64,000 nt of DNA. It comes from Gnetum montanum (taxonomy: Eukaryota; Plantae; Gnetophyta). The DNA is taken from positions 1,178,001 to 1,242,000 of the forward strand of contig MNCI01000651.1 in NCBI GenBank assembly GCA_015680685.1. The letters run 5' to 3'. Position 1 is the first letter of the stretch. The number at the start of each line of letters is the position of its first letter. Below the pieces are notes generated by a model. That model had not been told where the DNA came from. It searched no databases and was given only the letters and a program-made list of their open reading frames with translations. Below are positions 6,732 to 54,905 of the stretch, piece by piece. A program made the translations under genes and the position numbers.

Positions 6732-6908
6732 TTATTTTAAAAAGTATAAACATGTAACGAAACATTTTATAATCCACAAAAGTCTATTTCATCGAAGCTT
6801 CACATATTTAATGTGATCTTATTTTAAAAAGTATAAACATGTAACGAAACATTTTATAATCCACAAAAGTCTATTTCATCGAAGCTTCACATATTTAATG
6901 TGATCTTA
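6732..6908. repeat. Perfect 87-bp tandem duplication upstream of the TNL gene
   Basis: ttattttaaaaagtataaac...atgtgatctta is repeated exactly (starts at 6732 and 6819). Confidence 0.95.
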
Positions 6909-12075: not shown

Positions 12076-12115
12076 AGGAGCTGAAGCTGTCACCCTGCCA
12101 AATCTGCCAGTTATA

Positions 12116-12495: not shown

Positions 12496-12500
12496 TTATA

Positions 12501-21652: not shown

Positions 21653-24600
21653 TTAGCAAGGGTGGCCATCTCCCCCATCACTGAATGGGAAAGAGGAGAT
21701 CCAAAATAACGAGCAAGCTTGCCCACTTACAGAGGTAGCATATGTTCTGGTTGACCTAAACTCATGGAAAGGTTTTGTTTGTTGCACATTGACTAATAGT
21801 CTCTTATCTGGGCTCTCAAGTTTATCTATGGTCATGGCCCCTAAAGGAAAAGTTGCATAGATAATGTAAGGTCCTTCCCACAATGTTTGAAATTTGGTAT
21901 GTTGTAACACATGTGTGGGATTCTAGTAGAGAACCTTATCTCTTGGCTGGTAGTTAACTGTCCTAATTTTTAGGTTATGACATTGTTTATTAAATGCCTT
22001 GTGCAACTCATTAGATGATAAGACAACTAGTTAGTTCTCATCTAGCAAGTTAAGAGTCATCAACCTTTGTTTTTATGCTAGATCAAGGTCAAGGTTGAGG
22101 TCACATGCCATAGCTAGCATATGGAGCTTAGTTTGGATAGGAAGCGTTGGAAGTTTTCCATACACTAACTCATAAGGAGAGTAGCCTATAGGGAGTTTCC
22201 ATGTGGAGCGGTATGCCCAGAGAGCATCATTCAGTTTAGTGCTCCAGTCTCACCTATATTTGCTAATGGTTCTGGCTAGTATCTTAGTAATCTCTCTATT
22301 GGTGACCTCGGCTTGATCGTTTGCTTGGGGGTGGTATGGTGTAGTCAATTTGTGCTCAACCCCTAAGTGTTGCATTAACTTCTGAAAAGTTGCACCTGTA
22401 AAGTGTGTGCCATTATCTGAGATAAGTGCATGTGGCACACCAAACCTGTTGACGACTTGTTGTTGGACAAATCGTGCAGCTGTAGATGAGGTGCAATCTT
22501 TAACGGCTGCTACTTCAGCCCATTTTGTTAAGTAGTCTACGACAACTATGATGTATGCTTTTCCATTGGACATTAGTGTAATGGGCCCCATGAAATCGAT
22601 TCCCCAAATGTCGAAGGGTTCTAATGGTTGAATCCATTGTTGTGGCCCCTCCATTCTAGCAGTCATTCCCCCATCACGTTGACAATGCTCACAAGATTGG
22701 ATGAATTGATGGGTGTCCTGGAATAAGGTAGGCTAATAGTACCCTATAAGAAAGATCTTAATGGCTATTCATCTCCCAGCATAATGACCCCCACAAGGGC
22801 CCTCATGAGCATCTTGAAGAACTCTTGGTTGATCTCTATCGAGAACACATCATCGAACCAAGCCATTGGGACATACTTTGTAAAGTTGTCCATTGATTTC
22901 CATAAAGTACTTAGCTCTATAAAGAAACTGTTGTTTCTTCTTAAGGTCTAACTCTTGTGGTGTTTTTTGGATAAGGAGATAGGTAAGAATGCTACTATAC
23001 CAATTTGTCTTCATGGGTGATTGATTATTCACTATACCAACAAAGAGGAACTCATTAGGGAAGTGATCGAAAATAGGATACTCGTCCTCTTTGCTATCCC
23101 AGTGCAACTAAGATAAATGATTGGAAACTACGTTCTTGGTGCCTTTACGATCAATCATTGTTAGATTGAACTCTTGTAGGATTACTAGCCATTGTATAAT
23201 ACGGGGGCTTACCATTGGCTTATTCATGAGGAACCAGATGACACTATGATATGTGTGTATGAATACTTTATATCCCAATACATAGTGCCTAAATTTTTCT
23301 AGTGAAAACACTATAGTCATTAATTCCTTTTCTATAGTAGTGTAGTTAAGTTGTGCACCAGCTATACTTCTATTTGCACAGTGGATGTAATAAGGGCATT
23401 TTTGAGCATCTAATTGTGTAAGTACGGCTCCTAAGGCATAGTTAGATGCATTAGTCATGACATGGAATGGCATGGACTAATCAAGAGCTTGTAGAATGGG
23501 TGTTTCTACCAGCTTCTACTTCAAAGTTTAGAAAGCTAGTTTGCATTCCTTGATCCACTTGAAGGGTACATCTTTTTTCATTAGCTCTACCAATGATTTG
23601 GCAATCTTTGAAAAGTTCTCTATGAATCTCCTATAGTAGCTAGTGTGTCCAAGGAATGATCAAATGTCCTTGATAGTTTCCGGTTGATAGGTAATTCCTT
23701 GGATGACCTTGATTTTCTTAGGGTCTACCTCTATCCCTGCATGTAAAATTTTATGCCCAAGTACTATGCCTTCTTGGACCATTAAATGGATTTTCTACTA
23801 GTTGAGCCTTAGATTAGTCTCTACACATCTTTTTAGCACTTGCTCTAACCAGTCCAAGGCTTGATCACAACTTGCTCTGTAAGTGGAGCAGTCATCCATA
23901 AAGACTTCCACACCATTTCCTATCTACTCCTGGAATATGCTTAGAACTAAGTGTTGAAACATGGTAGGGGTATTGCATAAGCCAAACGACATTTGTTTGT
24001 ATGCAAACATTCTCCAAGGACTGGTGAATGTGGTTTTGGCTTGGTCTTCTAAGGCTATTTGTATTTGGTTGTATCCACTATAGCCATCTAGAAAATTATA
24101 ATAGTGATGCCCTACAATTGTGTCCAAGACTTGGTCAACAAATGGCAACGGAAAGTGATCCTTAAATGTTTCCATGTTTAGTAGCCTAAAATCTATACAC
24201 ATCCTCAATTTGTCTTCCTTTTTAGGCACAATTACCAAGGGGATAACCCATTTACTATTAGCAATGGGGTATATGAACCTAGCCTTTAGAAGTTGTTTGA
24301 TTTCTTCTTTTACTACTTGTTTCAACTTTGGGTTCAATCGCCTCTGTGGTTGTTTTCGAGGCTTCATGGAGGAGTCAATGTAAATCCTATGCTGGCATAT
24401 CCTAGGATCTATTCCAATTAATTTTGGATATGACCAGGCGAAGAATTTTGACCACTTGTTTATTACCTTGAGCAGACTTTCTTTTTGTTGTGGAGCAAGT
24501 CTTGCGTTGATGATTACTAATTTTCCATTCTTAAGGAATGTGTATTCCATACCGGTGGGTAATGGTTTTAGCTCCAGGGGATCTTGTTTAAATTTCTTGG

Positions 24601-27600
24601 GAATTTTCAACTTCCCCCAGTTGATGTTTTCTAAGTTAGGATTGGGAAGCTGGTGGTGGACTTGCTCTAATGCATCAATGCTATTTATATAAGCGCAAGT
24701 CAAACCCTTAGTTAGTTCCATGCATATAAGTGAGCTGCTTTCTTGATTAGCTATCAACCACTAGGTGTCTTTTTGTCGTGTGGCTGCTGCATACAGGCAC
24801 CTTTGTATGTTGATTGTTTGTGCACACTGATTGCATGCAGGTAATGCTAAACTTTGCACAACCCATGATCTCTGCAGGCAATTGCACCCTAAGTCACTGT
24901 ATGCGATGCATGGAACCTTCTTCTTCTCGATCTTTCTAAAAGTGTTTTCCTTAGATATTTCTAAGGGAAGATCACAGATACCTAGGCGCACATCGATAGT
25001 GCTTAGCCATGCCCTTCCCATTATGATTGGGAAGTCCCCCTTACTGTTATTCATTTGGATCACCAAGAAGTTAGTTGGATACGATCACCCACAAACAGTG
25101 GTGACAATGTCCTCCACTAATCCCAAGGGGACAATGATGGACTGGTTGACTAACTCTAAATGAACATTGCTCTTTTTCAATGGGGGTAGGTTTGAGGCCT
25201 TATACATTTCTTGGGATATTAGGTTGACACCGGAACTTGAATCTAAAATAGCTTTGCATGGCTCATTTCTAGCAATTTGTAGATAGATTAGGGGACTCCT
25301 AGGATTAGATAATTTCTTGAGAAGGTGGCCAGCTTTGATCCAATCAGTAGTGGCATGTGTTAACATGATCATATGCATTGAATGTGGTGTTAAGTTTGAA
25401 GGGGGCTCTGAAGCTTTAGTTGATACGGAGGCGTCCAAAGACTTAGCCACTTGAGGTTGCAAAGGCTTAGTTGGATTGTTGGTTTTGAAGAAAGATCTTT
25501 TCTTTGTACGATTCTCAAAACCAACAGTAGGTTGAGGATTAACAACCCTTGTGGTATTGCGTTGTTGTGGCTGAGCATGGAGTTCACCTTGCATTGCTGG
25601 AGCAGGTGGTAATGGAGCTATTGTTGGGAGAGATGCGGCTGGATTGGAAGGATGGTACACTTGTGGAATGTCACCCCTAGGAGAGGAAGTCCTATAGTAC
25701 TCGTAGGCCTGGTAGTGATGTTGGGGAGTAACATGACCAACAGAATCATGTGGAGAGACTGGATGTTGCACGTAGTATCCATATGGGTTAGGTTGTTAGT
25801 AAGGATATTGTTTCTTTGGCGATGGCATTCCCCATGATTGTCGGTGCTGCGACTGTTGATGTTGCTCCATTGGTTGTGGTGGAGTTCCACTTGGATAATA
25901 TGTTAAAGGTTGGTGGAACTGCCTTGGGTTACCTTGGGGATAAGGTAATCGTCGGGATGTTTTTCTTTTGTTTAAACGTGGATTAAGTGCATACACCCCA
26001 GACTCCTGTAAATGTGAGATTACAGGGCAACATCCCTTAGGATGGTTGTATTGATAGATCTCACATCCACTATCATCATCCATATTTGAGACCACAACCT
26101 CTTCAATAATAGCAACTTTACCCTTACCCTTGTTACGTGCATTTTCTGCTTCTCTCTTTTTCCTTTTGTTATAGTCACTACCTCACTCCCTAGACTCCTC
26201 TACTACTTTGAGCATAGTTTGAAACCTACTATCCAGGGAGTCCCACATTTGGTCTACCTTTGCTGATACTTCAGATGCTAACTTTTGAATAGGCAAGGTT
26301 TTCCTATTCACCATCTCTTCGAGTGGTGACTCTTCCTCATCCTCACAAAATCTTACTCCCTTCTTTTGGAGAGAAGGATCTCAGCTGTATTCTTTTGCGC
26401 TCTCTCTTTTTCGTAGCTCCCCTTCTTCTTTAGCTACTTGCTCCAGAAGTCTGTGAATTTGATGGGACCTAAGCTTAGATAACCTTCCTTGGGCATAAGT
26501 CCTAAGGGTCCTTCTTGTTTCATGCCTAAGCCCATCTATGAGATGATGTAGTTGATCCCGCTACGAATAACCATGGCCAGGACAACAATGTAAGAGTGCA
26601 TAATAGTGGCCCATGGTAGCATCCAAGGGTTCATGATTTCCTTGTTTCCATCCTTGGATTTTCTTTCACAGGTTAGATACCTACGAGTACATTCGGTACT
26701 TATCGTTATAACATCGTACTCCACCTACGAATGGATTTTGGTTCTAAGGACCGATACTAGCTTTCAGTTTCTTTTATTAGTTTTCGTGGAAATAACTTAA
26801 GCTTTTGCCACTCATTTTCTATGTTTTGCAAGGCACACGCATCATGAAATTCTTGTAAGTGATTTTGAGGATCAACATTATATCCCCCTTCAAATTGTGG
26901 GATGTTATTCATGTCTAGCCTCTTGATCCTACTATCTTTTTGGTGCCTTGTTGGAACTCTCAATGCCTCAATTATATCTAGCATGCTTTGTGTGGCAAGT
27001 AGGGGTTCATCATGATCATCTCATTCATAGCATCTATGGTGTCTATGCGGTTCCCTACTCTCCCTTCTTCTATGGCATGATTTCTTAGAGTGCCCTCATC
27101 CTTTATTTTGGTTGTCTCATCTGTGACTTCCACTTTGTTTGCCCTTATCCTCATGATCTGTTTCTCTATGGCTATGTCCGGACATACAAGGAGAGGATGA
27201 AGGAGACAATGGGGGTGAAGAAGAAGGATAATTGCCATCATGATGTTGTCTACTACCTTTTCTTTGGTGGTCTCTCTCTCGATCGTGATTGCGATCAGAA
27301 TGTCCACCTTTGCCATGTGCCCTTGTTCCTTTTTTAGACTTTTTGTGTCTGTTGGTATCAGCACCTGGGTTGTGAATAGTAGAATGAAGGTTTTGATACA
27401 CAACCCCTTGGCCAAAGTCAAGGGGAGGAACATCATTATGTGGGTGACTACCTAAGGAAGGTTCATCATCCTCAATTTTACTTAAAAACCAGGGGGCATC
27501 CTTAGACCATTTTCCCTTTAAGGACTTATGGTGTCTCTCCTGTTGCATGTCACTTTGACATTGTGCTTCGGTGGGATGATAGTCTCTCAAATCATAGTCC

Positions 27601-27892
27601 TATGCAGTGTACTCTACATGTAAGTGTTGCATGCCTATTCATGTGAGAGCATGAAGAAGCATTCTTGGGACTGAATGGTCAGAAGGTAACACTATGTTAC
27701 CTTCAAAGTCACACCAATGCAGTTGTTTGTCTTGGTGGAGAATAAAGGTGAAGTTTGGTACATATTCATCAGGGTGAATATATACCACACGAAACTATTG
27801 AGGAACTGGCGGATTAATGTCATGTGTAATTTACTGCCGATTGCTTCTTGTGTTAGTCCTAGTGAAGTGCTTTTGTGTGAAGAAGAAGACAT
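21653..27892 (-). pseudogene. gag-pol of element C (many stops and frameshifts)
   Basis: Gag DPQNHLQEFHDAC...KLKLFP; PR AILDSSSGVNLI; RT KDHFPLPFVDQ, FLDGYSGYNQI, VFMDD; RH ASNYALGAVL, NYTTIEKEL; IN WGIDFMGP, ISDNGTHF, EVTNREI. Confidence 0.93.
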
Positions 27893-28005
27893 TTTGTCTT
27901 GTTCAGTGTGCAATGCGCTATTATATTTTTCTTAACCAACCCTAAGGGTTCATTCCAGAGATGTGAATGATTTCCTAAGTTCTACTTAGCACACAAACAA
28001 CTAAG

Positions 28006-28023
28006 TCCCCAGCAATGGTGCCA
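28006..28023 (-). other. PBS (tRNA-Asp type, Athila-like) of element C
   Basis: Minus strand TGGCACCATTGCTGGGGA versus the Athila-type TGGCGCCGTTGCCGGGGA; differences are at CpGs. Confidence 0.85.
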
Positions 28024-28024
28024 A

Positions 28025-28860
28025 TGATGAGCGACAAAGTACCCCTATGCTCAACCATATGAATACGAGCGTTTCACACATGATCCAATCAAATTCTAAG
28101 GACTAAGTGCCTATGCACCTGTGTGGAACAATAACGGGGTGATTAATCGTTGTCTTCCCAAACTTACTTGTATGTCATGGTAGTATGGTTAAGCAAGCTT
28201 GAGGCATATGATTTTTATGGCTCTTATGTGTTTTATATCTTGTGCTAATAAGGAGGGGAGAGAGAAATAACTAAGTAACTAATCTAATTTAACTATTCAT
28301 TAACCAAGTTCTAAGTACTCCTAACATCAGTATTCGTTCCCACTTTCCATACACATCCTGAACCAGTGCAACGTTGCTAGGGTTACCAAATGCTAATCGT
28401 TACTGGGTTACCAAGTGCTACACGCATGCTCGAAGTGGTCGTACTAAGTGTATTTAACTAAGAGAGTTGTAGGGTAAGAGAAATAATTAATTAACTATGA
28501 AAGAATTAAATAATAATTAACACTAATTAATCTATTCTGTATGTTGCAATGTTTATCATAAAGTTCATCTTTATTACCGTACACAAAGTGTGCTCAGGTA
28601 CACAATGCTCGAATAAAGGTCTATTCACTCTATGACTCCTACTGTGGGCACACAGAAATAATTCTAACTCTGGAGGGAGAGAATGATAAGAGTTTGGCTA
28701 AGGGACTAACTTCTAACTGTGGAAACCAAGGGCACTGCCTCTTATTTATAGACAAGGAGACAAGCCGCGATATCAGGTATTTGACATTGCATGGTAGATC
28801 CAATCTTGTAGATGCGATATAGTGGACATGATAGTGCGTACGTGATATCACGGTTCATCA
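28025..28860 (-). repeat. 5' LTR of element C
   Basis: TG...CA termini; U3 GATATC cluster at about 28765-28855; TATA (ctataaat on minus) near 28750. Confidence 0.93.
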
Positions 28861-29149
28861 ATGTCAAACCCTTATCTTGCCCTCTTGATCCTTCCTCCTT
28901 TCTTTAAGGTAGGTAGGCAATTGTGAATTACTTTTTAGTTTCATTTGTGATGAGAATTATGTTATTTCCATGATATGGACCTCTTATTGATGGAAATAAA
29001 GGGATGAATGATGTATTCTTATTGATTTACATAATTATTCCTTTAATAATTTGATAGCTTAGAACATAATTTCAACAATGAAGTTGATTCCTATACAAAA
29101 TTGGTAACTTCATTAAATTTTAAATTGACTAAAAGAAATTGTAGTATTA

Positions 29150-30859: not shown

Positions 30860-32928
30860 TGCAAAAATTGCACATGAAAAAAATGATAAATACAACTTTT
30901 AAAAATACTTAAGAAACATTATCATAACTGTTGAATCATGGAATATATGGATAAGTATAAATAATGTTGAAATATTTAAATAACTACTAGATGCATTAAA
31001 GATATACATGAATTGGTGTCTCTTCCCCATGACTAAGTTACAAGATACTAGGCTTGAACCACAGCTAGAACACCAAGAACACGAAAAAACAAAAAGAGTG
31101 CTTGTAAAAATATCATTAATCCAATCATTGAGGTAAAAAGTTGGCAAAGTTTCTCTTCTTTATGGTCAAATTGGAAGCAAAGGAAAGAAATAATGAAAAA
31201 GGTAAACTACAAAAATATGTTTGGAAGATCCTCCCATTTATAGTAGTGCATTGATGCAGGGAGGGTATGCTAGCATAGGGATATTGATGCCCCTACATTA
31301 ATGCATGGGGTGCATTAGCACATCCTCCCAAACTTGAAAAAAATGCAAAATGTCTCAAAAAAATACTCAAACTTATCTTCCTTCACTTCTAGAGCCTTGT
31401 GCAAGTTTAATAACACATCCAAATTACCATGAATTGACCTAGTAAAGCATCTAAGAACTAAGACAACAAAAGCATTATAAACTTACTTTTAGTGACATCC
31501 ACAATCATGGAAATTGAGATGATTGATTAATGTATGCATTCCCATGAACCAAAAGCTAGAAAAGAGGGGGTTAGAAAAATAGGAAAATTATTAAAGCATC
31601 AAAAATAATGGAATACAATCATAATTAAGGTGAATTGAAGAGAGTTTGTCATAGTTAAATCTTAAAGCACAATAGAGTCAACACTTGCACAAGTGAAAAA
31701 CCAATCAAGTGCCTTATGTAGTGCAACCACCATCATCACTAAGAGCTAAGATTTAATTACTAGCTTAAAATGTCAATCCACCAAGGATTCACAAGTGAAT
31801 CCTTCCCATAGCAAATACTTACCTTTCTTGATCTTGTGAAACTTTTTGATGAGACATCCATGGATTTCTAATAACTAGTGAGACATGAGCATCCGATACA
31901 AGTTTGTCCCCTTGAATGACCAGATCTCATCCTCTACTTCACCTAATCAACTTCTTATCATACATAACAATGGATAAGAAATGGAATGAAAAAAAATGAA
32001 GAATGAATAATGAATAATATAGAGAAAAGGATGAAAGTGCAACATTAAAAAATCGCTAGCCAACCATTCAATTAGCTCATGGAGCACGTGGGCATGTCCT
32101 ACATCTCATGAAAGATATATTACAACATCCTTTTATTACTACTCATCCATATAATGGGTATATACCTCAAAGTCTTCTTTCCAAGCACAAGGTCACACCT
32201 ACCACTTCCAATGTCATATAACCTTGATTATTCTATAGTCCAACCATTGGTTAGATTTGAAAGTTAAGATTCCAATTTAGTTTTCATCCATTTGTACATG
32301 TATACACAATAGGCTACATGAAGATTGCTTTACCAAAAACCTTTCATTGATCCCTTTGGTTGCACTAACCAATCTCATATCTTGATAGAAATCACAATGC
32401 CATGATCAAACAAAGGAAAATTCCATGTTCAAATAGAGTCACGGCTTCGAACAAGGATTATGAGGTTGATTCTTCAAAAAAATGATTTGGAATTTTAGGT
32501 GAAAGAAACATTTGATATCACACAAGTTTACTCAAAGAGAGACTTGTGGATATTTATGGTCATGGGTAAGGATAAGCAAGAGATTTTCTTGGATTATGAT
32601 AGTTTGGAAAATCAAGTAATCTATGCAATGGGTTAATTATGAGGAAAATTTCAATAGGCATTGATTCAAGCACTGATTTGATTTTGATATGAGAAATTAT
32701 AAAATTGGTTTGAGATGGTAAAAATGATAATTTACTTGGACTAATAAGCTTGAAGTTACATTACTCTTTTCATCATGTTTTTTTTTCATTATTATTTTAC
32801 TAATACTTTTTCTATTATTTTTTCTTTTTAATCATAATTTCTTTTTTCATCATTTTTTGCATTTTTCTTTTCATTTTCATCATTTTTTGAAAGAGGATTT
32901 TTTATGGAGCATGAGAATCATGGGAATG

Positions 32929-37303: not shown

Positions 37304-37397
37304 CATATATATAGATTTTTATAATGGATATAGTATAGATACAATATCGTGGATGTGATATCATAATGGCTAATATATCATATCTATGATATCATTG
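37304..37397 (-). promoter_or_regulatory. Internal promoter of element D: GATATC cluster + TATA
   Basis: ctatatatatg on minus at 37304-37314, preceded by several (G/A)ATATC copies like those in the clan's LTR U3. Confidence 0.55.
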
Positions 37398-41640: not shown

Positions 41641-42546
41641 TGATGAAGCGCTAAATAGTCGATGCGTTGACTAGGCTATGTATACGGGGCCCCATATACA
41701 TGGCCATATCGATGTAGCCCTGTTGACACATCCGTCTATGCATTGATGTGGCCCCGTTTATGCGAAGCTTGTTTTAGCTTATAAATAAGTGGGCTTATGC
41801 CACACTTGGGTACCTTTTTGACAATTGTAGCGAAGCTCTTGCAGTTCATTTCTGCAAGAGTTAGAATATTTTCTAAGTGCCTGGAGTAGGTGTAAGAAAG
41901 GTGTCTAGCTCTTTATTCGAGCACTAATGTACTTGAGCCCATTGGTGTGAATGGAAATAAAGATGAGCTTTTCAAGCATTCCTTGCAACAATTGGACTTA
42001 GTTATTTGATGCATTTAATAGTTTAATATTTCTATGCTTTGATAATTCCTTAAGTTTTTGTTGTTATTACCTTAATTTCCATCACTCTCTTATAGTTTGT
42101 GAAGACCATAAGTACGACCATCTCGAACATAAACCCAACACTTGGCAACCCAGCGACGCATAATGTCTAGAAACCCACTAGTGGCTAGGGGATGCTCAAG
42201 ATGTGTATGGAAGATGGGATCGGATACTTATGCTAGGAAAAGTTAAGATATAGATTAGGATAACTATAGATTGCATAATATTCCATTCCTTACTTTCTAT
42301 TTCAAGAATTAGCCGCTAGAAGATAAAGTGAAAAAGCCATAAAAATCATTTGTCTCAATCTCACTTAACCATTGCAATCAAAACATCACAAGTGAGGTTG
42401 GAAAGACAATGATCATTTTAACCTAAGGTTTTTCTAGTTAGGCTCTAGTGTATGAAAAGTGCTTACAGTCTATGGAATTCGACCAAGTCATGTGTGAACA
42501 CCTGTGATTTGCATGGTTGGGTATAAGGGTACCTAGCCACTCATCA
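41641..42546 (+). repeat. 5' LTR of element B
   Basis: TG...CA termini; U3 with GTATAC/GTCGAC-type palindromes; TATAAAT near 41780. Confidence 0.92.
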
Positions 42547-42547
42547 T

Positions 42548-42565
42548 TGGTGCCGTTTCCAGGCA
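42548..42565 (+). other. PBS (tRNA-Asp type) of element B
   Basis: TGGTGCCGTTTCCAGG, 1 nt after the LTR end. Confidence 0.8.
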
Positions 42566-42704
42566 CTGTTAGTCTTACATGTAACCTTAGGAAAATTATC
42601 ATTCATGTCATGGGAACGGACCTAGGATAGTAAAATCTATGCACACTAGGCGGCCTAAGTAAAAAAGTAAGGTACACCAATTAGTGGATTATCTAACATC
42701 CAAC

Positions 42705-45700
42705 ATGTCTTCTTCTCACAGGCAAGATGGATCCAACCCACCAATGCCACAAGAATGTCAGGTGGTATACACGCATCTAGATGAATATGTCCCAAACTTC
42801 AACTTTATCCTACATTAGGATGAGCATTTGCACTGGCGGGACATGGAAGGCAACATCATACTACTGCCTGACCGATCAACTCCTGGAATGTTGTTTCAGA
42901 ATCTTGCCTGACTCGGCATTCAGGACTATGATGTGGAGTACGTCATGGAGGATCATGACTATTGGGGCTATCGTCCCACTGAGGCCCAACATGTACGAGA
43001 CCAATAGCAAGAAGAATGGTATGAACACATGAAGGGGCATTAGTTCAGTAACCCCTTATTCTTGTAAGGGTTGTAGGACGATGGGGAACCTATATTTTAT
43101 GATTCCCATTTGGCCAAACTTTCAGTGGGGCATCAGATCATTCAGTCCATCATTCAAAACAAGAAATCAAGTGATTGGGACCCCTAGGAGGATGGAGGAT
43201 CACGTAGGAGAGGTCATGGAATAAGCAGAGATGGGCATGAAGATTGGGACTATCATTAAAGTAGAGGGGGAGATCAACGTCGAGGTGGTGGTGATTCTTC
43301 TCCCTCTTCTCCATCCTTTCGCTCCCCTCTACCTTCATCCAGTTCCAACTCAGATTGGGACTACGGTAGAAAGGAGCGAGGTGATGGTGGTCGTAGGGAC
43401 CAAAGGGAATGACGTGAGGGAGTGCGTGAACAATGACACGAGCCTCACCATCAAGAAAGGAGATGTAGCTAGAATCGTCATAGAAATCATGGCCTTCAGT
43501 AGGACTATGACTTGGATGAACTATTGTTGGCTACTCGAAGCATGCTCCATATCATAGAGGTAGTTCAAATACCCAATAAGGACTTGAAGGATAGCCAGAT
43601 CAAGCGCATTGACATGAAAAATATTCCTAGATTTGAAGGGGGATATAATTGTGATATGCAAACTCACCTACAAGCATTTCATGATGCTTGCACCCTGCAG
43701 AACATCAATAATGATTGGCAAAAGTTGAAGCTATTTCCTCGCACACTCATCAAAGAAGCAAAAAGCTAGTATCGATCTTTGGAATCGGAATCAATTAGGA
43801 GATGAAGTACAATGCTGGAGATCTTCAATGACAAGTATCAAACCTACTCTAGAGTGGCGAACCTGAGATGCCAAATCCAAGGGTGGAAGTAAGGTATTCA
43901 TAAACCCTTAGATGCAACCATGAGCAGATACTACTCACTGTTGCATTAATTCCCTGATCATGGCTATTCTCAGTGGGCACAACTTTGCCATATCATTGAT
44001 GGGCTCTGCTTTGAAACTAGAAAGACCCTTGGTGTGTACACGTAAGGATAGCTATCAGAACTAAGAGCCCATCAACTATAGCACCTAATTGAGCAAGTGG
44101 ATAAAGAAGAGAGGGAACTTAGAAAGAAGGAGAGTGTAGAGGAGTTTAATTGGGATCCCTCCATTAGAAAGAGGAAGGTCCAATTTTGTGAAGATGAGGA
44201 GGAATCACCATTGGATGCAGCAGTGAACTAAAAAACCTTTCCCCTACAAAAATTTTCCTCTAAAATATTGCTAACGTGGATAAGATGTGGGACTCTTTGG
44301 ACGAAAAATTTCAAAGTGTTCTGAAAATTGCAGAGGAGTCCAAAGAGCAAGGTAATGATCGTGATCGGCATAGGAAGAAGAAAGCTGAACGTGCCTACCA
44401 TAAAGGTAAGGGCAAAGTTGCTATAGCAGAATAGGTTACGGACTTTGATACAGAGGAAGATGATGAATGTAACATATGCCAATACAAACATCCTAATGGG
44501 TGTTATCTTGTGGTGTCACATCTATAAGAGTCTAGGGTGTATGCATTGAATCCTCGTTTGGAAAAGAGGCAAACTCCCCAAAGGTTGTCTTACCCACAAG
44601 GCAACCCCAGGCAGTTCCACCAGTAGTAAGGATATTATCCAAGTGGAATGCCACCACAACCTTATGAATACTTTCAGCAATGGCAGCACCCACAAGCATG
44701 GGAAATGCCACCTCCAAGGTAGCAGTACCCTTATCGACATCCAAATCCCTATGGGTACTACGTTCAGCAACTAGTCTCCCTGTGGGACTCTTCCAGTCAC
44801 GCAACCTTTCAGAATTACTACCATCCCCATAATATTTCTGACCATAGTCTTCATCACCTAGGGGAGGCCAACATCTCTACTATCCTTTATCACCTTCTCC
44901 TGAAGGCCCTACTTAGCAACACCCCACTCAGTTACCACCTGCTTCACCTATGTAGGGGGAGATACCACCACAACCACAACAATGCAATGCTACGAGGGCT
45001 GTTAACCTACAATTGGCTTCTCAACCGAATGGACAGGAAGCCAAGCCATGGAAATGTCCCTTTTCTCGGCCTAATAACCTAAGCATACCCTCACATGCAC
45101 TTGTGGCTAGTGCCTCTAAACCTCAAAATGCCTCCACTGTTATACCCTTCGAGTAGCCTTCAAACTAAATGCCCTCCAACGTACAAACAATCATGCTCAC
45201 ACACGCCATGACCAACTGGATAAAATTAGATCATCTTCCTTGAAAATTGACTGATCTGGGAAGCCCCCTCATCTATCTTCAGGTGGCAAGGAATGAGCCA
45301 TGTAAAGCTCTTCTAGATTTGGGGTTGAGAGTCAACTTAATTTTACATGACATGTACAAGACTTGGAACTTGCCTCCATTAAAGAAGAGCAACATTTGGC
45401 TTGAGCTGGCAGACCAATCCATTACTGTTCCCTTAGGATTGGTAGAGGACATTGTGACCACCATTTGTGGGTGGTCCTATCTTGCTGATTTCCTTGTCAT
45501 TCATGTTGAGAATTACAAGGAAAACTTTCCAATCATAATGGGAAGAGCTTGGTTGAGCATGGTGGATGCAAGATTGAGACTCTAAGATCTTTTTCTTAAA
45601 ATTTCAAAGGAAAATACTTTTTGAAAGACTGAGAAGAAGTGCATTCCATGCATCGCGTACAGTGACTCCAAGTGCAACTATGTGCAGCAGCTATGGTCCG

Positions 45701-48700
45701 CTTAGCGGACATCTATCCAAGCATGCAGTTGGTGTATTGAGGAATCGCAAGTTCAAAAATGCTTGTACATAGCAGCCACAAATCAAGAAGGCACCCAGTG
45801 GCTAACTGCTGATCCTACTAGCAGAACTTTGTGCATCGAACCATCTGAGGGGCTTGTATGTGCCTATGTAGAAAGCATGGATGATTTGGAAGAGGTTCAT
45901 CAACAAGTATCCACTATTGATGACCTTGATGATTGGGGAAAGTTGCAAATCCATGAAAGTTTTAAACTAGAGCCCTTGGAACTCAAACCCTTACTAGCCC
46001 ACTTAGAATATGCATTTTTGCAGAATGGGAAACCAGTGATTATCAGTGCCACCCTTGCTTCTGAATAGAAGAAGAAGTTGCTGAAGGTGGTGAACAAATG
46101 GGAAGCTACTTTTGCATGGTCATATTCTAAATTAACAGGAGTTGATCCTAGGGTTTGCCAACATCAAATTTATATTGACCCCTCCATGAAGCCACGACGA
46201 TAACCACAAAGGTAATTGAACCCCAAACTAAAGTAAGTTATCAAAGATGAAATTGAGTAGTTGCTGAAAGCAGGGTTCATCTATTCCATTGCTGATAGCG
46301 AATGGGTCAGCCCACTCATTATTCTACCAAAGAAGGATGGAAAATGGAGGGTTTGTATAGATTTTCAATTGCTCAACATGGCTACCTTCAAAGATCACTT
46401 CCCATTCCCATTCATGGACTAGATGTTGGATACCATTACGGGGCATCGTTATTATAGCTTTTTGGATGGCTATAGAGGCTATAACCAAATCCAAATCGTG
46501 CCAAAAGACCAGGCCAAGATAACCTTCACAAGTTCCTAGGGGAAATTTTTCATACAAAAAGATGTCCTTTGGCCTGTGTAATGCACCTGCCACTTTCCAA
46601 CGCCTTGTCCTCAACATCTTCTAGCAAAAAATTGGAAATGGGGTAGAAGTCTTCATGGATGAATTCTCTACCTATGAAGCCATGTTTGGTCAAGCCTTGG
46701 ATAGCCTTGAGCAAGTTTTGAAAGGATGTGTGGAAACTAATCTATGGCTCAACTGGCAGAAAAGCCACTTAATGATCCAAGAGGGCATTATGCTAGGGCA
46801 CCGTATTTTACAAACAAGGATTAACATGGATCCTGAAAAAATCAAGGTCATCCAAGGAATTACCAGGTAGCCAAGCACTGTAAAAGATGTTCAGTTATTC
46901 CTTGGCCACATTGGTTACTATCGACGCTTCATTGAAAATTTCTCGAAGATCGCCAAGCCATTGGTGGAACTCATGAAGAAAGATGCTTTATTTGTCTGGA
47001 CCAAGGAATGTGAATCTTCATTCAAACACTTAAATAGAAACTCGTAGAGGCCCTAGTTCTATGAGCACCTGATTGGTCCAGACCCTTCCACATCATGACG
47101 GATGCATGCAATTATGTATTGGGAGTCGTGTTCACATATTGGGATATTAAAAAACGCTCATACTATATTCACTATGCAAGTCGTAGCATTGTGGGTGGTC
47201 AACTTAACTACACCACCATTGAAAAAGAGTTGATGGTGGTGGTGTTCGCCTTGGAAAAATTTTGACACTATGTGCTCAGGTACAAGGTGTTTGTGCATAC
47301 TGACCATAGTTCCATCTGGTTCCTAATGAACAAACCAATGATGAGCCCCCGTATCATATGGTGGCTGGTGATTCTTCAAGAGTTTGACCTCACTATGGTA
47401 GATCAGAATGGAATTGAGAATGTGGCCACTGACCACTTGTCTTGGTTGCGATGGAATAATGCAAAAGAGGAGGAGCCACTCTCTGACCAATTCCTAGATG
47501 AAATCCTCTTCGTGGGAGCGGTCGATACGCAGGTGCCCAAAGAATAACCTTGGTCCAACCATATCCTCACCTATCTCACAACTCAGGAATTGCCAAAGGA
47601 GTGGGACCACCAACAAAAAGAATAGTTTTTCCATAAGGCCAAGTGCTTCATGGAAATAAATGGTCACCTTTACAAGGTGTGTGCAGATGGCCTAATTAGA
47701 TGGTGTGTCCTTGATGATGATACACTACGCATCCTCTAAAATGCTCACGAGGGCCCTTTTGGGGGCCACTATGTTAGATGACGCATGACCATTAAGATCC
47801 TACTTGTAGGATATTACTAGCCTACAATTTTCAAGGATGCAAAATGGTTTGCCCACTCCTATGAACGATGCCAGAGAGACAGTGGGATGACTGCACGAAT
47901 GGGGGAACCTTAATAGTGGATCCAACTGTTGGAGTCCTTCAACATTTGGGGCATCGAGTTCATGGGTCCAATCACATCCCTGTCTAACGGAAAGGGATAC
48001 ATCATCGTGGATATGGGCTACTGCACAAAGTGGGTAGAGGCGGCAGCCGTTATCAACTGTTCCTTAAACACTATCGCACAATTTGTCCAACCACAAATCA
48101 TCAATAGGTTTGAAGTGCCACGTGCACTCATCTCAAACAATGGAATGCATTTCATAGGTGTCACTTTTCGTAAACTCATGCAACACTTGGGGGTTACCCA
48201 TAAGTTTACAACACCTTATCACCCCCAAGCCAATGGGCAGGCCGAAGTTACCAATAGGGAGATCACCAAAATCCTTACTCGAACCATAAATAAATATAGG
48301 AGGGATTGGAGCACCAAAATTAATGATGCCCTCTGGGCCTACTTCTCTACTTGGAAACTTCCTATAGGTTACTCTCCCTATGAGTTAGTGTACAATAAGC
48401 TATTGAAACTTCCAATTCAAGCAAAACTCTGGACACTATCTACAACCTGTGACTTGGGTCTTGACCTACCACTAGCACAACATGAATGACTTATCAACCT
48501 AACTATGCTAAATGAGAATCAATTGGTGGCCCTGTCATCAAATGAGATACACAAGGCCTACAATAAAAAATTTCATGATCTTAGGATTCGGAAGGTAACA
48601 TTTAGATGTGGAGATAAGGTCCTTTATTGGAACCCCACACACATACCACAACCAACCAAGTTTCAAACACTATGGGGGGGACCTTACATTATCTCCGAAA

Positions 48701-48900
48701 CCTTTTCATCTGGGGCCTTACTTATACAAAAACCTGAGGATCCCATGAGAACACAGTTGGTCAATAGGCAATAATTAAAACTTTTCTATGATCCCCACTA
48801 AACTAGTCCTACTGCATCATCATCACAAGGACAGGATCCTTCCATTTTTTTGCATCTCCTCCTTCCAGCCTAGTCGTGGGGGAGATCGTTGTCCATGCTA
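42705..48900 (+). pseudogene. gag-pol of element B (many stops)
   Basis: MSSSH start shared with element C; gag IPRFEGGY...KLKLFPRTL; PR ALLDLG; RT KDHFPFPF, VFMDEFS; RH; IN TPYHPQANGQAEVTNREI. Confidence 0.93.
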
Positions 48901-50118
48901 ATCCATTCTACTAAGATCCCCACTATTTTTGGAACTTTTTGTTTTTCACTTTTTTGTTTTTCAACATTGTTCATACGTTTGCCAATTCTTACTAAGTTCT
49001 TCATTCTTTAATTACTTTTCCATTTCTTTGTTGCTTACTTATCTGTGTTTGTTTCATTTCCAGTTGGTTGCTAATACATCATCTTATTTTCATCAGGTGT
49101 ATGGTGCGGATGGTTTTTGTTGCGATGGGTCACGTGAAAAGGTCCACCTATTTTATCTCACTCTTGCCCTCACATTATTGTTCTTGGAATTTACGTCTAC
49201 TTTCATCTCATAAAATCAACAGTGAGTCGACATCATCCACCTATTCATCCACTCCATGGTTTTCCTCCCTTTGGAAACATGCAAACCCCTTTACTTAAGA
49301 ATATTTTAATTAATGTGTGACTTGTGTAGTTTCCAGACTCGGGGATGATCCAATGGTTTGAATCGGGTGTGATTTCAAGGGGAATGCAAAATTCATCGTC
49401 CTCTTCTATCCCTTGAGTTGTAGAAGTGCCTTTACAGATTTCTTACCACTCCAAGTTCTTTTCTACAAGGAATCTCGTTAGCAATTTGACCTTGAATGGT
49501 GTGGTCCTCATCGCAAAAACACAAAAAAAACGTGAGGATTCAAAGCACACCACTTGGTCGAATGCATGCAACCAAGCATGGGTCTTTGCATGGTGTGGTT
49601 CCCACAAAATCAAACTAAAAACAAAAATAAAGTCCTAACTATGTGGGAATTCAAAGCACACCCCTTAGACTGCCTCTCATGGGCCACAAGCACTAGTTAT
49701 GGGACTCGCTTCATCCCCTCTAACTTAGTCTCGATGCACTTCCTTCCTCTCATGTCTGTTAGAGTGGTGGTTCTCTGTGGGTGCATTCTTATACACTTGG
49801 GGGGTGGACAAGTCTTCATATGTTGCTGCAATGTCATTGTATGTGGTTGGTTTTGGGTTTGAACTCGGGAAAGGTCCTACTGAGTCACTTAACCACAACT
49901 TCACATGGGGTTTCATGTGATCGATAATTGGAATTTCAATTCTCTCTTCTCTCTCATCATCCATTTCTCTCCATGACTCACCTCACTTCCTATCTTATGT
50001 TTTGATAGTTTGTCATGATTTCCATGAACTCCTCATGCTTCAGCAAGTTCTCATGGATGGGAGTATTAACTTGCAATCATCATTTCTTGACCCTAGGACC
50101 CACGAACTCTAGTGTTGA

Positions 50119-50177
50119 GGATATGCAAGGGCTATTGCAGCTACCGCTTGCTATGGGGAGGACCTACTTGCATATCC
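50119..50177 (+). other. Conserved stem-loop (11-bp stem, 37-nt loop) in the post-pol spacer
   Basis: GGATATGCAAG / CTTGCATATCC. Homologues with different stem sequences at 18154-18208, 20518-20574, 31788-31840 and 37703-37761. Confidence 0.75.
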
Positions 50178-50429
50178 CTAGTCCCATTTGTTAGTCTTTC
50201 ATCCTCTTGATTTTGTTGGTGGATTGTTTTCATGATACCCATCGCTCGACTTCTTCTCCGCAGAGTTCTTTTTCACCACATTCTTCTACTTTTGACTCCC
50301 TTTTTTGTTCACTTACCTTCCTCTTTCTCTTGGCCATGTTCCTGGTCTCTCCAACTCTACAACCACCCCAATTTGGCATTTTAAATCCATTTTTGGGCTT
50401 TTATCAGGCTAGTTAATGCTGGTCAATGG

Positions 50430-50952
50430 GTGCAACCCCTTGCGTATACGTGGCCTTGTATACGTAGCCCCCCTGCATATACACGACCCCATCAACGTAG
50501 CCATAAACCTCTATATATACCCCCATCATGTGTTACATTTTCATTAATTTTACACACAAATTGGGTAGAGATTTTTCATTTTTCTACCTCGCCTCTTCTT
50601 CCAAGCACTTACATTGTCTACCGCGCATCCTAATCAACCTATCCTTTCCTTCTTTAGAAATTGAAGGTATGCTCTCAATCGTGGGGGGTGAGGTCTATTC
50701 AAATTAATTAATTACTTACAATTACAATCAATAAATACTTAACACCTCTTAAGGGAAGAAACAAAAACAACAGTTTAAACTCCAACTCATGCCTATTGTT
50801 TTTTGGTTCTAACCGCCCATCAATTACTACTCCAAGAAGTTTAATGGGATGCACGTGATAGCACCATAACTTAGTCAAAATGAGAAGGTGTATGAGGGCC
50901 ATTTTGAGCAATTTTTTATACAATATTAATTAGTAGTTATGTTTTATTGTAG
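50430..50952 (+). promoter_or_regulatory. Internal promoter + leader intron of element B accessory ORF
   Basis: LTR-like GTATAC/GGCC cluster at 50441-50503, CTATATATA at 50511, donor AAG|GTATGC at 50667, acceptor ttttattgtAG|ATG at 50952. Confidence 0.62.
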
Positions 50953-53760
50953 ATGGCACTGAAACCAAGGCATCCAAGGGGAGAAGGACCATCACAACCA
51001 AGGGATAAGCGGCGAAAAATGAGAAGAGGATGAGGTGTGCAACACCTAGAGCATGCAGAGGACACCCATGCAATTGGCCCCATCCATGAAGGACTTGATG
51101 TTGAATCTGTTCATCATATTCCTAAAGAGGATATCCTTAGTGAACAATCGCAAGGGGATGAGACTCCGGTGATAGTGCCACGGCTTGAGGTCACCTTGAC
51201 CCAGGTATGTCTTAATGCTATCAAGCCAAGGGAAGTGTAACAAATGGTCCTAGAAGAGCTGAAATTTGGACCATTTCTTAAGAATGCACCAGAAGAGGTG
51301 ATGCTCCAATTACAAAACTCCCCTATGTGGCCAATAATCACATCCATTGGTGAATGGTACTTAGGAGAGACTTACCTCTTTTGGACAAATCGATAGCTGG
51401 GGTCCAGAGTAAGAATCAAGCTCTGGGGTTACCTGAGACTAGAGTCAATATGGCGAAGATCCCTAAGTAGGCAGATCCCAAGGTAAAAAGGGAGTGGATT
51501 AGGTGGTGTTATGGGATGGATCGTAAAGAGTTTGGCACTCAGACCACCGTGGAGAGGGTGTATTTAAAAATTATGTCTTACCACTTGAACCCAATGATGA
51601 GACCCAAAAAAATCATTGCCTTCTCCACTCATGCATGTGCTGCTCTAAGTGAAAAATTTCCAATGAGCCTTCCATAATTGTTGTTCCTGGAGATTGAGAA
51701 AAGGTTCGTTGAAAGCGAACGTGGAAAATAGGCTTTACCCTTTCCTTGCTTAATCAAAAAATTATGCAAACGAGCAGGGATAGCACGATATGTCAATGAT
51801 ACACTTCGGCACGCCCTGATTGCCTTGTGATGGGAAATGATGAAAGATAGGACTTTGGCCACCACACAAACTAAGAAAGAGCAGCAACCGCCTCCACCAC
51901 TTATGCAAAAAATGAGGTCAAGTTCACAAACAATCATAGAAGATATACATGAAATCTAGCAATCACTCTTGAGCCAACAAGAGCAACCTGGAGGGATCGG
52001 TGGAGGAGAAGAGCCTTCGGTTTATTGCCCTGCAATGAGCCATTTGGAGCAAGTGGCTCGATCAATAAGTCTATTAGAAAGAGCAAGGCTGATGTTCTCT
52101 ATTGCCTAAACACAAGTACCTACAAGAATTAATCCTAGTGTCCAAGAAGTAACGGTATCCATCCAACAGTTGTTTCCTGAAATTTTAAGGAATGCTGCTA
52201 CTTTTTTGGTACGCTTGGAGGATGGAGAGGGGGTGACAGTCCTAGTGATGCAGCACCAAGGATAGGAGATTACAGCCGAAGTGGTTGCTAATACAATTGC
52301 TACAGCCCTCAATGCACCAGTGGCACCTATACTAGATGTACATGGACTCAAAGATGTACAAGCGTTTGCTAGGACTTCACGTAGGAGGATCGATGTAGCC
52401 CAACATGAAGAACTATTGGATCGACTGATGGAAACTAGGCAACCACTTCTGGATGTTTTTGATGTTTCAGATAGCATCACTACAACCCAATCGGAGCTAC
52501 TTTCAACAAGGTTTAAGAGCCTCATCTTGGAGGGGAAACTCAAAGTTGCTCAAGCCAATTGTCAATGCTTAGCAAAACAAAAGTTACCTAATTAAGGGCC
52601 CACCTTGTCGATCTAACTCTTTTCAACCGTGAACTCACTAGAGATGAATCTTTTCAATGGCTTCAAGTCAAACTCCAAATAGTTGAGGATGAGCATGAGT
52701 CGATGACTTTTGATAAGTCCTTGGCAGACGTTCATGCATATTACCTAAACAAGGACCTGATAGAGGTTCGCCAGAAGAATATAAGGCTAACCACGGAAGT
52801 TCATTGCCTGCGCAATGTTGGTGATGAAAAGCAACACATGAAAAGCTTTATCCACCAATAGCAGGAAGAGCTAGCTAGCGTAAATGTTGATGTGAGGGGT
52901 TGGCCACTAAAAATCAAAATCTGTCCATGGAGGAGGTTTGTACCTTGTGACAGAAATCAGCCATCAAAATCGCCACTTTGAAAAGTAAAGCCCTTAAGTT
53001 TGAAAAAGTTAAGAATCATTACAAGGACCAAGTGGGTTACAGAAGGAAGTGAATGAAAAACATATTCAAGTCATTAAGGCTAAATTGAACCAAGTGCTCT
53101 AGCAGCTCTAAGAAGAAGGTGAGGTATGGCAACCTATCTTTGATGGGTTGAATGCATACAACCAGGCTAAAATCCATCTCAAGGAACTACAGATTGAAGA
53201 AATGACAGAGTACATGGAGTTGGCCAACCTTCGCTATGCAAACTTGGCTATGCTAATAGTTGGGAGACCGTGGTTTGACCTAGAAAAGAAAGTGACCACC
53301 TCCTATTCTTTATACAATGGCGAGTTCCATGCACATAAAGCAACAAAAAAAATTGAAAACAACAAATGCAGAACTCGAGGTCCTTCGCACGTATTTTAAG
53401 GGACAATGTGTGGTTTGGTTTTTCAATTTGAACAAAAATAGTTCGTGGCTTGGTTTGTCAATTTGAAAGAACTCTTCCCTGCGCGTCCATGCCCTTGGGA
53501 GGTTCCAGTCCCAGCACACATTAGTGAAGCCACTTAGATAGTGAATGATCCTAGAAGTAAGGAAGAAAAAATGAGGACTCTCTTGGAGGCATTTCGGTTG
53601 CCTCCAGAAGTTGCAGTTGCTATGAGACAACAATCATCCGTGCCATCATCACCACATGTGCCAGAGGCTGGTGAAGGTTTGTCAAAACCACTGGCACCAG
53701 GGATGATGTAATCTTCTCTAGCAATTTTTGCATCTTTCAGCACAACAGAGAATCCAAGAT
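50953..53760 (+). pseudogene. Accessory ORF of element B (about 930 codons, decayed): basic N-terminus, plant-transposon-protein-like core, long coiled-coil
   Basis: MALKPRHPRG...RRKMRRG; VYLKIMSYHLNP...ALPFPCLIKKLCKRAGI; LQIEEMTEYMELANLRYANLAML; CPWEVP. Confidence 0.82.
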
Positions 53761-53954
53761 TGTTGGGGTGTTCAGTTTTATCTCTAAATCCCACCATTTT
53801 GTAATTTTTCCTTCTCTATACACTCAAGCACTTGGTGCATTAGTAAAATTGGTGTTATGTCATGTGTGTTGTGTCATGTGTGTTGTAATAAGAAGTCCAT
53901 ACTTCCAAATTGTATAGGAACTCAAGGATGAGTTTTTACTCAGTCATGGGGGTA

Positions 53955-54905
53955 TGATGAAGCACTAAATAGTCGATGCGTCGACTAGGCCATGTATATG
54001 GGGCCTTGTATACATGGCCATGTCNTGGAAGCCCATTTATTTATAGGCTAAAACAGGCTTCGTGTAAACGGGGCCACGTCGACGCATGGATGGATGCGTT
54101 GATGGAGCCGCATTGACATGGCCATGTATACAAGGCCCCATATACATGGCCTAGTCGACGCATCGACTATTTAGTGCTTCATCATACCCCCATGACTGAG
54201 TAAAAACTCATCCTTGAGTTCCTATACAATTTGGAAGTATGGACTTCTTATTACAACACACATGACACAACACACATGACATAACACCAATTTTACTAAT
54301 GCACCAAGTGCTTGAGTGTATAGAGAAGGAAAAATTACAAAATGGTGGGATTTAGAGATAAAACTGAACACCCCAACAATCTTGGATTCTCTGTTGTGCT
54401 GAAAGATGCAAAAATTGCTAGAGAAGATTACATCATCCCTGGTGCCAGTGGTTTTGACAAACCTTCACCAGCCTCTGGCACATGTGGTGATGATGGCACG
54501 GATGATTGTTGTCTCATAGCNGTGTCTGGTAACCCAATAGTGGCTAGGGGATACTCAGGATGTGCATGGAAGATGGGATCAGATACTTATGCTAGGAAAA
54601 GCTAAGATATAGATTAGAATAACTGCAAATTACATAATATTCCATTCCTTACTTTCTATTTCAAGAATTAGCCACTAGAAGATAAAGTGAAAAAGCCATA
54701 AAAATCATTTGCCTCAATCTCACTTAACCATCGCAATCAGAACATCACATGTGAGGTTGGGAAGACAACGACCGTTCTAACCCAAGGTTTTTCTGGTTAG
54801 GGTATGGTGTATGCAAAGTGCTTATAGTCTACAAAATTTAACCCAGTCACGTGTGAACGCCCATGATTTCCATGGTTGGGCGTAGGGGTACCTAGCCGCT
54901 CATTA
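53955..54905 (+). repeat. 3' LTR of element B (mis-assembled internally)
   Basis: The start matches 41641, and 54522-54905 matches about 42163-42546. The interior is interrupted by N at 54025 and 54521. Confidence 0.85.
54026..54520 (-). other. Inverted contig between two gap Ns (assembly artefact)
   Basis: 54115-54520 is an apparently exact reverse complement of 53619-54024; the segment is bounded by single Ns. Confidence 0.85.

What the first reader, a model, noticed from the sequence alone, without database searches (positions are those of the whole stretch)
50430..50955. Internal promoter that copies the element's own LTR palindromes, in a lineage-specific way
Seen: in B the cluster before the internal TATA (CGTATACGTGGCCTTGTATACG...CCATCAACG) repeats motifs of B's LTR U3 (GGCCTTGTATAC at both 50452 and 54002). 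In D (37304-37397) and X (17751-17830) the same position holds GATATC clusters like those in the GATATC-clan LTRs. Y (31236-31325) holds GCATTGATGC, the deaminated form of GCGTCGACGC. In B a leader intron ends exactly at the accessory ATG. Inference: the LTR and internal promoter evolve in concert, as expected if one factor binds both.
Basis: partly seen in the sequence, partly recalled or inferred. Interest (0 to 1): 0.75.

Follow-up and report, generated by a model that had tools for sequence, protein, structure and literature searches.

The report
Retrotransposon's second promoter mirrors its LTR
A plant jumping gene carries the same spaced DNA palindromes in front of its main promoter and in front of a predicted second promoter for an extra gene, and in one lineage both sets differ together from those of its relatives, which likely means that one protein reads both; the layout is already known from another retrotransposon group.

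Summary
Observation confirmed. B (41641-54905) is an Athila-like Ty3/gypsy element. Before its accessory ORF lie four palindromic 8-mers (YR-TATA-YR, YR-TCGA-YR; 50443-50497), a TATA box and a predicted intron ending at the ATG. B's LTR U3 ranks this cluster first of 5,494 non-LTR windows; ATAT-type LTRs pick the ATAT clusters of D and X. Units recur at 14 nt in both clans (17 of 29 intervals). The internal TATA-leader is homologous across B, D and X and is no LTR copy, while B's nearest LTR and pol relatives carry ATAT: both arrays differ together. That is one lineage contrast, not a trend: 3 pairable elements, Y unpaired. No transcript, start site or splice junction was seen. The layout is published for copia Sireviruses (PMC2829016); I found no such report for Athila. 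The scan noted a similar layout in an animal element. Likely mechanism: internal promoter read by the same factor as the LTR, perhaps the element's own protein (untested). New variant of a known kind; interest 0.45.

The parts
41641..54905 (+). Element B, Athila-like Ty3/gypsy LTR retrotransposon, decayed, inserted in the pol gene of element D
   Evidence: LTR pair and flanking D pol; RT, RNase H, integrase in that order, no aRH or chromodomain hit; target duplication 4 of 5
41641..42546 (+). B 5' LTR
   Evidence: matches 53955-54034 and 54523-54903; PBS-like site from 42548
41679..41748 (+). U3 array of B: five units (TATA, TATA, TCGA, TCGA, TCGA types; spacing 14, 14, 14, 20), TATAAAT box at 41780
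50443..50497 (+). Internal array of B: four units at 50443, 50457, 50476 (TATA type) and 50490 (TCGA type); spacing 14, 19, 14; unit number varies among family copies
   Evidence: family contigs in four DNA runs
50512..50519 (+). Internal TATA box (TATATATA); start site predicted near 50543-50547
   Evidence: not among the 40 shown of 86 variant rows; start site inferred from spacing only
50545..50666 (+). Predicted non-coding first exon, pyrimidine-rich, no ATG; holds an acceptor-like site ending at 50657
   Evidence: the A of that AG is changed in 9-27% of contig depth
50667..50952 (+). Predicted 286-nt GT-AG leader intron with 7 upstream ATGs, ending at the accessory ATG
   Evidence: no spliced read seen
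50679..50686 (+). TCRTGGGG motif (like the core of the PPT), +167 from the internal TATA; +167 in D, +165 in X, +210 in Y
50953..53711 (+). Accessory ORF of about 920 codons, broken by stops and frameshifts: basic N-terminus, weak Transposase_32 match, long helical part, conserved C-terminal domain, no membrane-type segment
   Evidence: (E 2.8e-5, below the curated cut-off)
53944..54024 (+). PPT and start of the 3' LTR U3 (LTR from 53955; units at 53993, 54007)
54026..54520 (-). Flipped, partly duplicated contig inside B's 3' LTR (assembly artefact); holds the rest of the 3' U3 array
   Evidence: 406 of 406 identical arms, single Ns at both ends
37306..37394 (-). Internal ATAT array and TATATAT box of element D, before a homologous accessory ORF (about 36740-33990); D 3' LTR 32930-33712 has one clean ATAT unit and one near-match 14 nt away
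17750..17827 (-). Internal ATAT array and TATATAT box of element X; accessory ORF deleted
31235..31303 (-). Internal TCGA-type array and TATAAAT box of segment Y, before a distant accessory ORF from 30859; no LTR of its own found in the window
18966..28860 (-). Element A: ATAT arrays in both LTRs, nearest pol and LTR relative of B, lacks the internal array, TATA and accessory ORF

Best explanation
50443-50952 is likely an inherited internal promoter and spliced leader for the accessory gene of an Athila-like retrotransposon, and its palindrome array likely binds the same dimeric factor as the array in the element's LTR. Shown in the sequence: array, TATA box, ATG-free leader, GT-AG intron ending at the ATG; the same unit types and 14-nt period in B's U3; a different core (ATAT) at both sites in D and X. 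Inferred: the core promoter descends vertically, while the arrays gain, lose and exchange 14-nt units, and selection keeps both matched to one factor. The factor I think most likely is the element's own accessory protein (predicted nuclear, no membrane segment), which would switch on or unsilence first its own promoter and then the LTR; a host factor is nearly as likely. All copies here are dead relics.
For: B's two U3 copies rank B's internal cluster first of 5,494 windows; D, A, one solo LTR and E rank D's or X's first. Clusters of 2 or more ATAT units occur at 7 places and of TATA units at 3, all in U3 or internal promoters, with no mixing. 14-nt spacing in 17 of 29 intervals and in 4 of 4 internal clusters (the LTR pairs are not independent). 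Internal box TATATAT in B, D, X versus TATAAAT in 9 of 9 LTR copies; B's leader does not align with any LTR body; TCRTGGGG at +167/+167/+165. B's LTR body aligns over about 725 nt (62-64%) with ATAT-clan A and solo LTRs, and pol transversion distance B-A 0.107 is below B-D 0.166 and A-D 0.157. The region is a multicopy family trait (857, 797, 681, 383 contigs in four runs); none of the 40 shown of 86 variant rows falls in a TATA core, the TATA box or the donor GT, and array length varies. 0 ATG in the 122-nt exon, 7 in the intron. A lacks both array and ORF. Hydropathy maximum 1.22 in B's pieces and basic N-termini in B and D. Parallels: Sirevirus repeats (PMC2829016), VANC targets (PMC5735166), foamy Tas (PMC3798896).
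Against: Only one lineage contrast. Y carries TCGA units yet abuts X's intergenic region (29062-28933); if Y belongs to X, whose LTR is ATAT-like, it is a counter-example. X's U3 did not rank X's cluster in its top 6, and X keeps the array without an ORF. Four RNA runs gave depth of 1 or less over 50422-50822, few reads 95% alike or better (40, 5, 19, 10) and no splice joint: inconclusive. A second acceptor-like site at 50657 and the acceptor at the ATG fit splicing from the LTR transcript, the route stated for Athila ORF2 (PMC7197481, PMC7264820). No DNA-binding domain was found: no solved relative, 2 database relatives, fold pLDDT 39. In another plant's Athila-type locus a shared palindrome pair has no TATA or ORF behind it (L019).
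Confidence: 0.5

Rival explanations
1. Homogenisation without a shared factor: template switching or gene conversion copies 14-nt units between U3 and the internal site, which serves only as a CpG-rich spacer or weak enhancer.
For: About 27 nt of near-identity over two units including the spacer; unit number varies among copies; repeats are known indel hotspots in Sirevirus LTRs (PMC4728375, passages).
Against: Similarity stops at the array; flanks, TATA box and leader are not LTR-like; the array sits just before a TATA box at both sites in every clan; neutral copying gives no reason for that position.
Confidence: 0.2
2. The accessory mRNA is spliced from the LTR transcript, as for env-like genes; the internal TATA and array are an enhancer or a relic.
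For: Acceptor exactly at the ATG and a branch-point/pyrimidine/AG site ending at 50657 with no conserved donor between it and the TATA; stated route for Athila ORF2 and Bagy-2 (PMC7197481, PMC7264820, passages).
Against: A donor 155 nt after the TATA in B and canonical donors at +222 and +228 in D and X; TATA-to-motif distance kept across clans; the A of the 50657 AG is changed in 9-27% of depth.
Confidence: 0.17
3. The palindromes act in the genomic RNA (hairpins, or pairing between the internal array and the 3' U3), which selects for the same motif at both sites with no DNA-binding factor.
For: Own-clan duplexes are more stable than shuffles (B z -2.9 and -3.7; several ATAT pairs z -2 to -4.6) and several arrays fold; hairpins reported for Sirevirus arrays (PMC4728375).
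Against: Any shared palindrome pairs by construction; B's internal array folds weakly (z -1.7) and D's own pair is weak (z -1.8); the position before TATA boxes fits a DNA role.
Confidence: 0.1
4. Chance resemblance among decayed, CpG-rich repeats.
For: Motif classes were defined after inspection; few elements.
Against: Class-free ranking, 14-nt period, family-wide presence.
Confidence: 0.03

Closest known systems
Sirevirus (Ty1/copia SIRE) repeated motifs, Bousios et al. 2010, PMC2829016 (abstract, sections 9, 10 and part 1 of 15 read) and 2016, PMC4728375 (passages)
   Same: Element-specific palindromes cluster before the LTR TATA box and before the extra ORF; elements without the ORF lack the internal copies; an internal promoter was proposed.
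   Different: Copia, not gypsy; CGG-CCG core and 8-32 copies versus CG-N4-CG cores and 3-5 per site at a 14-nt period; they could not identify the internal promoter, whereas here a TATA box, leader and intron are visible and homologous across clans.
Athila clade 3' extra ORF (ORF2, env-like; Transposase_32 PF20167 / ATHILA PF03078): PMC6317226, PMC11728184, PMC7197481, PMC7264820 (passages)
   Same: Non-chromovirus pol without aRH, sense 3' ORF, acceptor at the ORF, weak Transposase_32 match; a sunflower Athila ORF of this kind is predicted nuclear.
   Different: Those texts have ORF2 expressed by splicing from the LTR transcript; none of the passages I saw describes LTR-matched palindrome arrays or an internal TATA. 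About 920 codons with a C-terminal domain that found no relative.
Foamy virus Tas / internal promoter circuit (PMC3798896, passages)
   Same: Internal promoter drives a spliced accessory transcript; response elements in both the internal promoter and U3.
   Different: There the protein is shown to bind both; here binding and transcription are untested, and the element has no env.
VANDAL VANC anti-silencing system (PMC5735166, abstract and section 9)
   Same: Family-specific motifs in tandem units that gain and lose copies and change together at several non-coding sites of one element.
   Different: DNA transposon; VANC domains (DUF1985, DUF287) not detected here; no methylation data here.
Grande gene23 and Retand TRP28 antisense ORFs (PMC7264820, PMC11963269, passages)
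   Same: Gypsy accessory gene with its own promoter and a nuclear, possibly DNA-binding product.
   Different: Antisense, Tat lineage, different domain; no LTR-matched array reported in the passages seen.

Membership tests
Athila clade (Ty3/gypsy, OTA) | pol order RT, RNase H, integrase; no chromodomain | tested here: met
   Pfam on three frames of B and A
Athila clade (Ty3/gypsy, OTA) | No archaeal-type RNase H (separates Athila from Tat, PMC6317226) | tested here: inconclusive
   no second RNase H family hit in broken frames; decay could hide one
Athila clade (Ty3/gypsy, OTA) | Sense extra ORF between pol and 3' LTR | tested here: met
Athila clade (Ty3/gypsy, OTA) | PBS for tRNA-Asp | not tested
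   PBS sequences resemble the Athila PBS as I recall it; not aligned to a tRNA
Athila clade (Ty3/gypsy, OTA) | RT/RH/INT phylogeny with reference elements | not testable with these tools
   no reference set at hand
Sirevirus repeated-motif layout | Same element-specific palindrome before LTR TATA and before the extra ORF | tested here: met
   B clear, D fair, X weak
Sirevirus repeated-motif layout | Internal copies only where the extra ORF is present | tested here: inconclusive
   A lacks both; X keeps the array without the ORF
Sirevirus repeated-motif layout | CGG-CCG core and Ty1/copia pol | tested here: not met
   cores are CG-N4-CG types; gypsy domain order
Foamy-type Tas/IP circuit | Transcripts start at an internal promoter | tested here: inconclusive
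   sequence fits; RNA lay gave almost no reads there
Foamy-type Tas/IP circuit | Accessory protein binds and activates both promoters | not testable with these tools
   needs bench work
VANC-type anti-silencing | Family-specific tandem target motifs of variable number | tested here: met
VANC-type anti-silencing | VANC or plant-mobile-domain fold in the protein | tested here: inconclusive
   no such Pfam hit, no PDB sequence hit, fold unusable
VANC-type anti-silencing | Sequence-specific loss of DNA methylation | not testable with these tools
   no methylome

The most novel reading that the evidence does not exclude
The long-unexplained 3' accessory protein of Athila-type retrotransposons is a self-encoded, family-specific DNA-binding activator or anti-silencer: it is made from its own internal promoter, binds paired palindromes 14 nt apart at that promoter and at the LTR, and changes specificity together with both arrays, a foamy-virus or VANC-like circuit in a plant LTR retrotransposon.
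Probability: 0.25. Interest if true: 0.8.

Novelty: new variant of a known kind. Interest (0 to 1): 0.45.

Why it matters
The function and expression route of plant 'env-like' extra ORFs are open questions. A defined internal TATA-leader, and natural families that differ in one 4-base core at a fixed spacing, make them testable: swap arrays between clans and ask which promoter answers to which factor. The same layout in copia Sireviruses and in gypsy Athila-like elements would point to a shared regulatory design in the largest plant retrotransposon groups. If only copying between repeats is at work, it is a minor structural note.

Tried and rejected
No whole genome is held, so per-family motif discovery was limited to the window. 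No RNA holder was listed. 4 of 6 raw-read RNA runs were laid (2% of two, 26% of two, 80% likeness): mostly partial reads of other families; the only joint was a repeat jump at 49670/49523. Viral contigs: no relative of A's integrase. One metagenome scan with a PPT-region pattern gave 38 loci; none hit pol or accessory queries by tblastn; of 15 inspected for repeats, L019 alone had a palindrome shared by LTR and internal region, L017's internal repeats belong to a nested insertion, and most others were short or unrelated. Homologue searches: C-terminal part none; N-terminal domain 2 fragments, 1 on repeat; PDB none; the protein atlas gave no result; the fold had pLDDT 39 and was not searched. 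Rejected: the 900-bp palindrome in B's 3' LTR as biology (artefact); a donor at 50565-50566, changed in 84-95% of family depth; recent duplication of the LTR promoter; D's 3' LTR doubling as a 5' LTR for Y (no PBS after it, read). Literature: ten searches showed no paper on LTR-matched arrays before Athila ORF2. Passages of PMC3276544, PMC7319988, PMC12859917 and bioRxiv 2021.07.15.452536 had nothing on it. Steimer 2000, Wright and Voytas 2002 and Panda and Slotkin 2020 were not held; I recall Athila-derived TSI transcripts from the 3' half, unchecked, so an internal Athila start may be in print. No supplements were read; Bousios 2010 additional file 2 bears on the comparison.

Full report
Setting. 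The window is plant DNA: a TIR-NB-LRR gene at 8178-14269 among nested Ty3/gypsy relics. B runs 41641-54905 on the plus strand inside the pol gene of D; A (18966-28860) sits inside X; there are two solo LTRs and the LTR of a further element E at about 62560. B and A show RT, RNase H and integrase with no aRH or chromodomain hit. With the sense 3' ORF this fits the Athila clade as defined in PMC6317226 (passages); no tree with references was possible. B's LTRs differ by 12% in R/U5 and by 17%, all transitions, in U3: an old, methylation-decayed copy. No whole genome is held.

The observation. Allowing for CpG decay, the unit is an 8-mer of three kinds, YR-ATAT-YR, YR-TATA-YR and YR-TCGA-YR, usually followed by a 6-nt spacer. 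B's U3 has five units (TATA, TATA, TCGA, TCGA, TCGA), B's internal site four (TATA, TATA, TATA, TCGA); D and X have three ATAT units each, Y three TCGA units. In 64 kb, clusters of two or more ATAT units occur at 7 places and TATA units at 3, every one a U3 or one of these internal sites. A class-free local alignment that treats transitions as neutral ranked B's internal cluster first of 5,494 overlapping non-LTR windows for both B LTRs, and D's or X's first for D, A, one solo LTR and E; X's own U3 failed (6 of 7). Successive units are 14 nt apart in 17 of 29 intervals. The large palindrome in B's 3' LTR is a flipped contig (406 of 406 identical).

Is it a promoter? After the array come TATATATA (50512), a pyrimidine-rich 122-nt stretch with no ATG, a donor at 50667, 286 nt holding 7 ATGs, and an acceptor directly before the ATG at 50953. 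D and X have canonical donors at +222 and +228. A TCRTGGGG motif lies +167, +167, +165 and +210 from the internal TATA in B, D, X and Y (14 hits in the window against 1.3 expected). The internal box reads TATATAT in B, D and X, the LTR box TATAAAT in 9 of 9 copies, and B's leader aligns with no LTR body. So the TATA-leader unit is inferred to be old and vertically inherited, not a fresh LTR copy. Four DNA runs, labelled as four organisms, laid 857, 797, 681 and 383 contigs on 50410-50700. Depth is high on both flanks and drops across the array, and loose ends show further units; none of the 40 shown of 86 variant rows is in a TATA core, the box or the donor GT. RNA did not decide it: depth of 1 or less, no splice joint. 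Against: an acceptor-like site at 50657, kept in most copies, would suit splicing from the LTR transcript, the route given for Athila ORF2 in PMC7197481 and PMC7264820 (passages).

Is it concerted? B's LTR body aligns over about 725 nt with the ATAT-clan LTRs of A and the solo LTRs, only in patches with D, E and X; B's pol is nearer A than D. B therefore differs from its nearest relatives in U3 core and from D and X in the internal core, in the same way, while the neighbouring promoter parts stay homologous. That is the real content of the finding. Its limit: three pairable elements, D and X related, in effect one contrast; A has lost the internal array; Y has no LTR and adjoins X's intergenic region, so it could be a counter-example. 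One Athila-type locus of another plant, L019, has a different palindrome pair 22 nt apart in both LTR and internal region, but after the LTR TATA and with no ORF or TATA behind the internal copy: a partial parallel only.

The protein. B, D and Y encode related, broken ORFs; B and D match Transposase_32 below the curated cut-off. B shows a basic N-terminus and no membrane-type segment, so it does not look like env. Searches found two fragments and no structure. DNA binding is neither shown nor excluded. PMC11728184 predicts a nuclear sunflower Athila ORF with this domain; PMC12844716 speculates that element-encoded factors shape Athila methylation; PMC13547354 links VANC to MAIN but, in the passages seen, not the Athila domain (all passages).

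Mechanism. I commit to an internal promoter whose array binds the same dimeric factor as U3 (0.5). A constant 14-nt geometry with a changing core, among families in one host, fits one protein family changing specificity better than a change of host factor; this is inference. It favours the element's own product (about 0.25 overall), as in foamy Tas (PMC3798896, passages) and VANC (PMC5735166, abstract and section 9). Rivals: copying of units without a factor (0.2), splicing from the LTR (0.17), RNA pairing (0.1; feasible but true of any shared palindrome), chance (0.03).

Prior art and verdict. Bousios et al. 2010 (PMC2829016; abstract, sections 9, 10, part of 15) reported this layout in copia Sireviruses: element-specific palindromes in the LTR and before ENV, absent where ENV is absent, with an internal promoter proposed but not identified. 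Ten searches showed no equivalent for Athila, but three key Athila papers were not held. An earlier scan note (e1-9358293, unchecked) describes a like layout in an animal element and named the foamy review; e1-10417404 notes the same protein domain elsewhere in this genome. New here: a gypsy case, a visible core promoter, the fixed period, and the split between inherited promoter and matched arrays. New variant of a known kind; interest 0.45.

Noticed in passing
window 53619-54520: Perfect 406-nt inverted duplication between single Ns: a mis-oriented contig in the scaffold, not a real giant palindrome.
   Followed up: yes
window 50679, 37146, 17592, 31032, 20344: A PPT-core-like TCRTGGGG motif in all four leaders, also kept in A, which has lost promoter and ORF; possibly an internal plus-strand primer or a splicing signal.
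   Followed up: partly
window 28866-32925: Segment Y (own promoter and distant accessory ORF) directly adjoins X's post-pol intergenic region with no LTR or PPT between: nested deletion, or one element with two accessory units.
   Followed up: partly
window 53049-53660 and 33991-34620: The accessory C-terminal domain is better conserved between B and D (40% over the alignment, 47-53% in blocks) than the Transposase_32 part, yet has no database relative.
   Followed up: partly
window 55677-56510: Solo LTR inserted in D's protease region whose ATAT units are 17 nt apart instead of 14.
   Followed up: no
L019, about 1450-1930 nt before its PPT; L014 LTR: An ORF-less Athila-type element of another plant carries internally both its own LTR palindrome pair and a motif found in the LTR of the related family L014.
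   Followed up: partly
window 8178-14269: TIR-NB-LRR resistance gene with 72-nt LRR repeats, set among the retroelements.
   Followed up: no
window 6732-6908: Exact 87-nt tandem duplication upstream of the resistance gene; may be an assembly effect.
   Followed up: no
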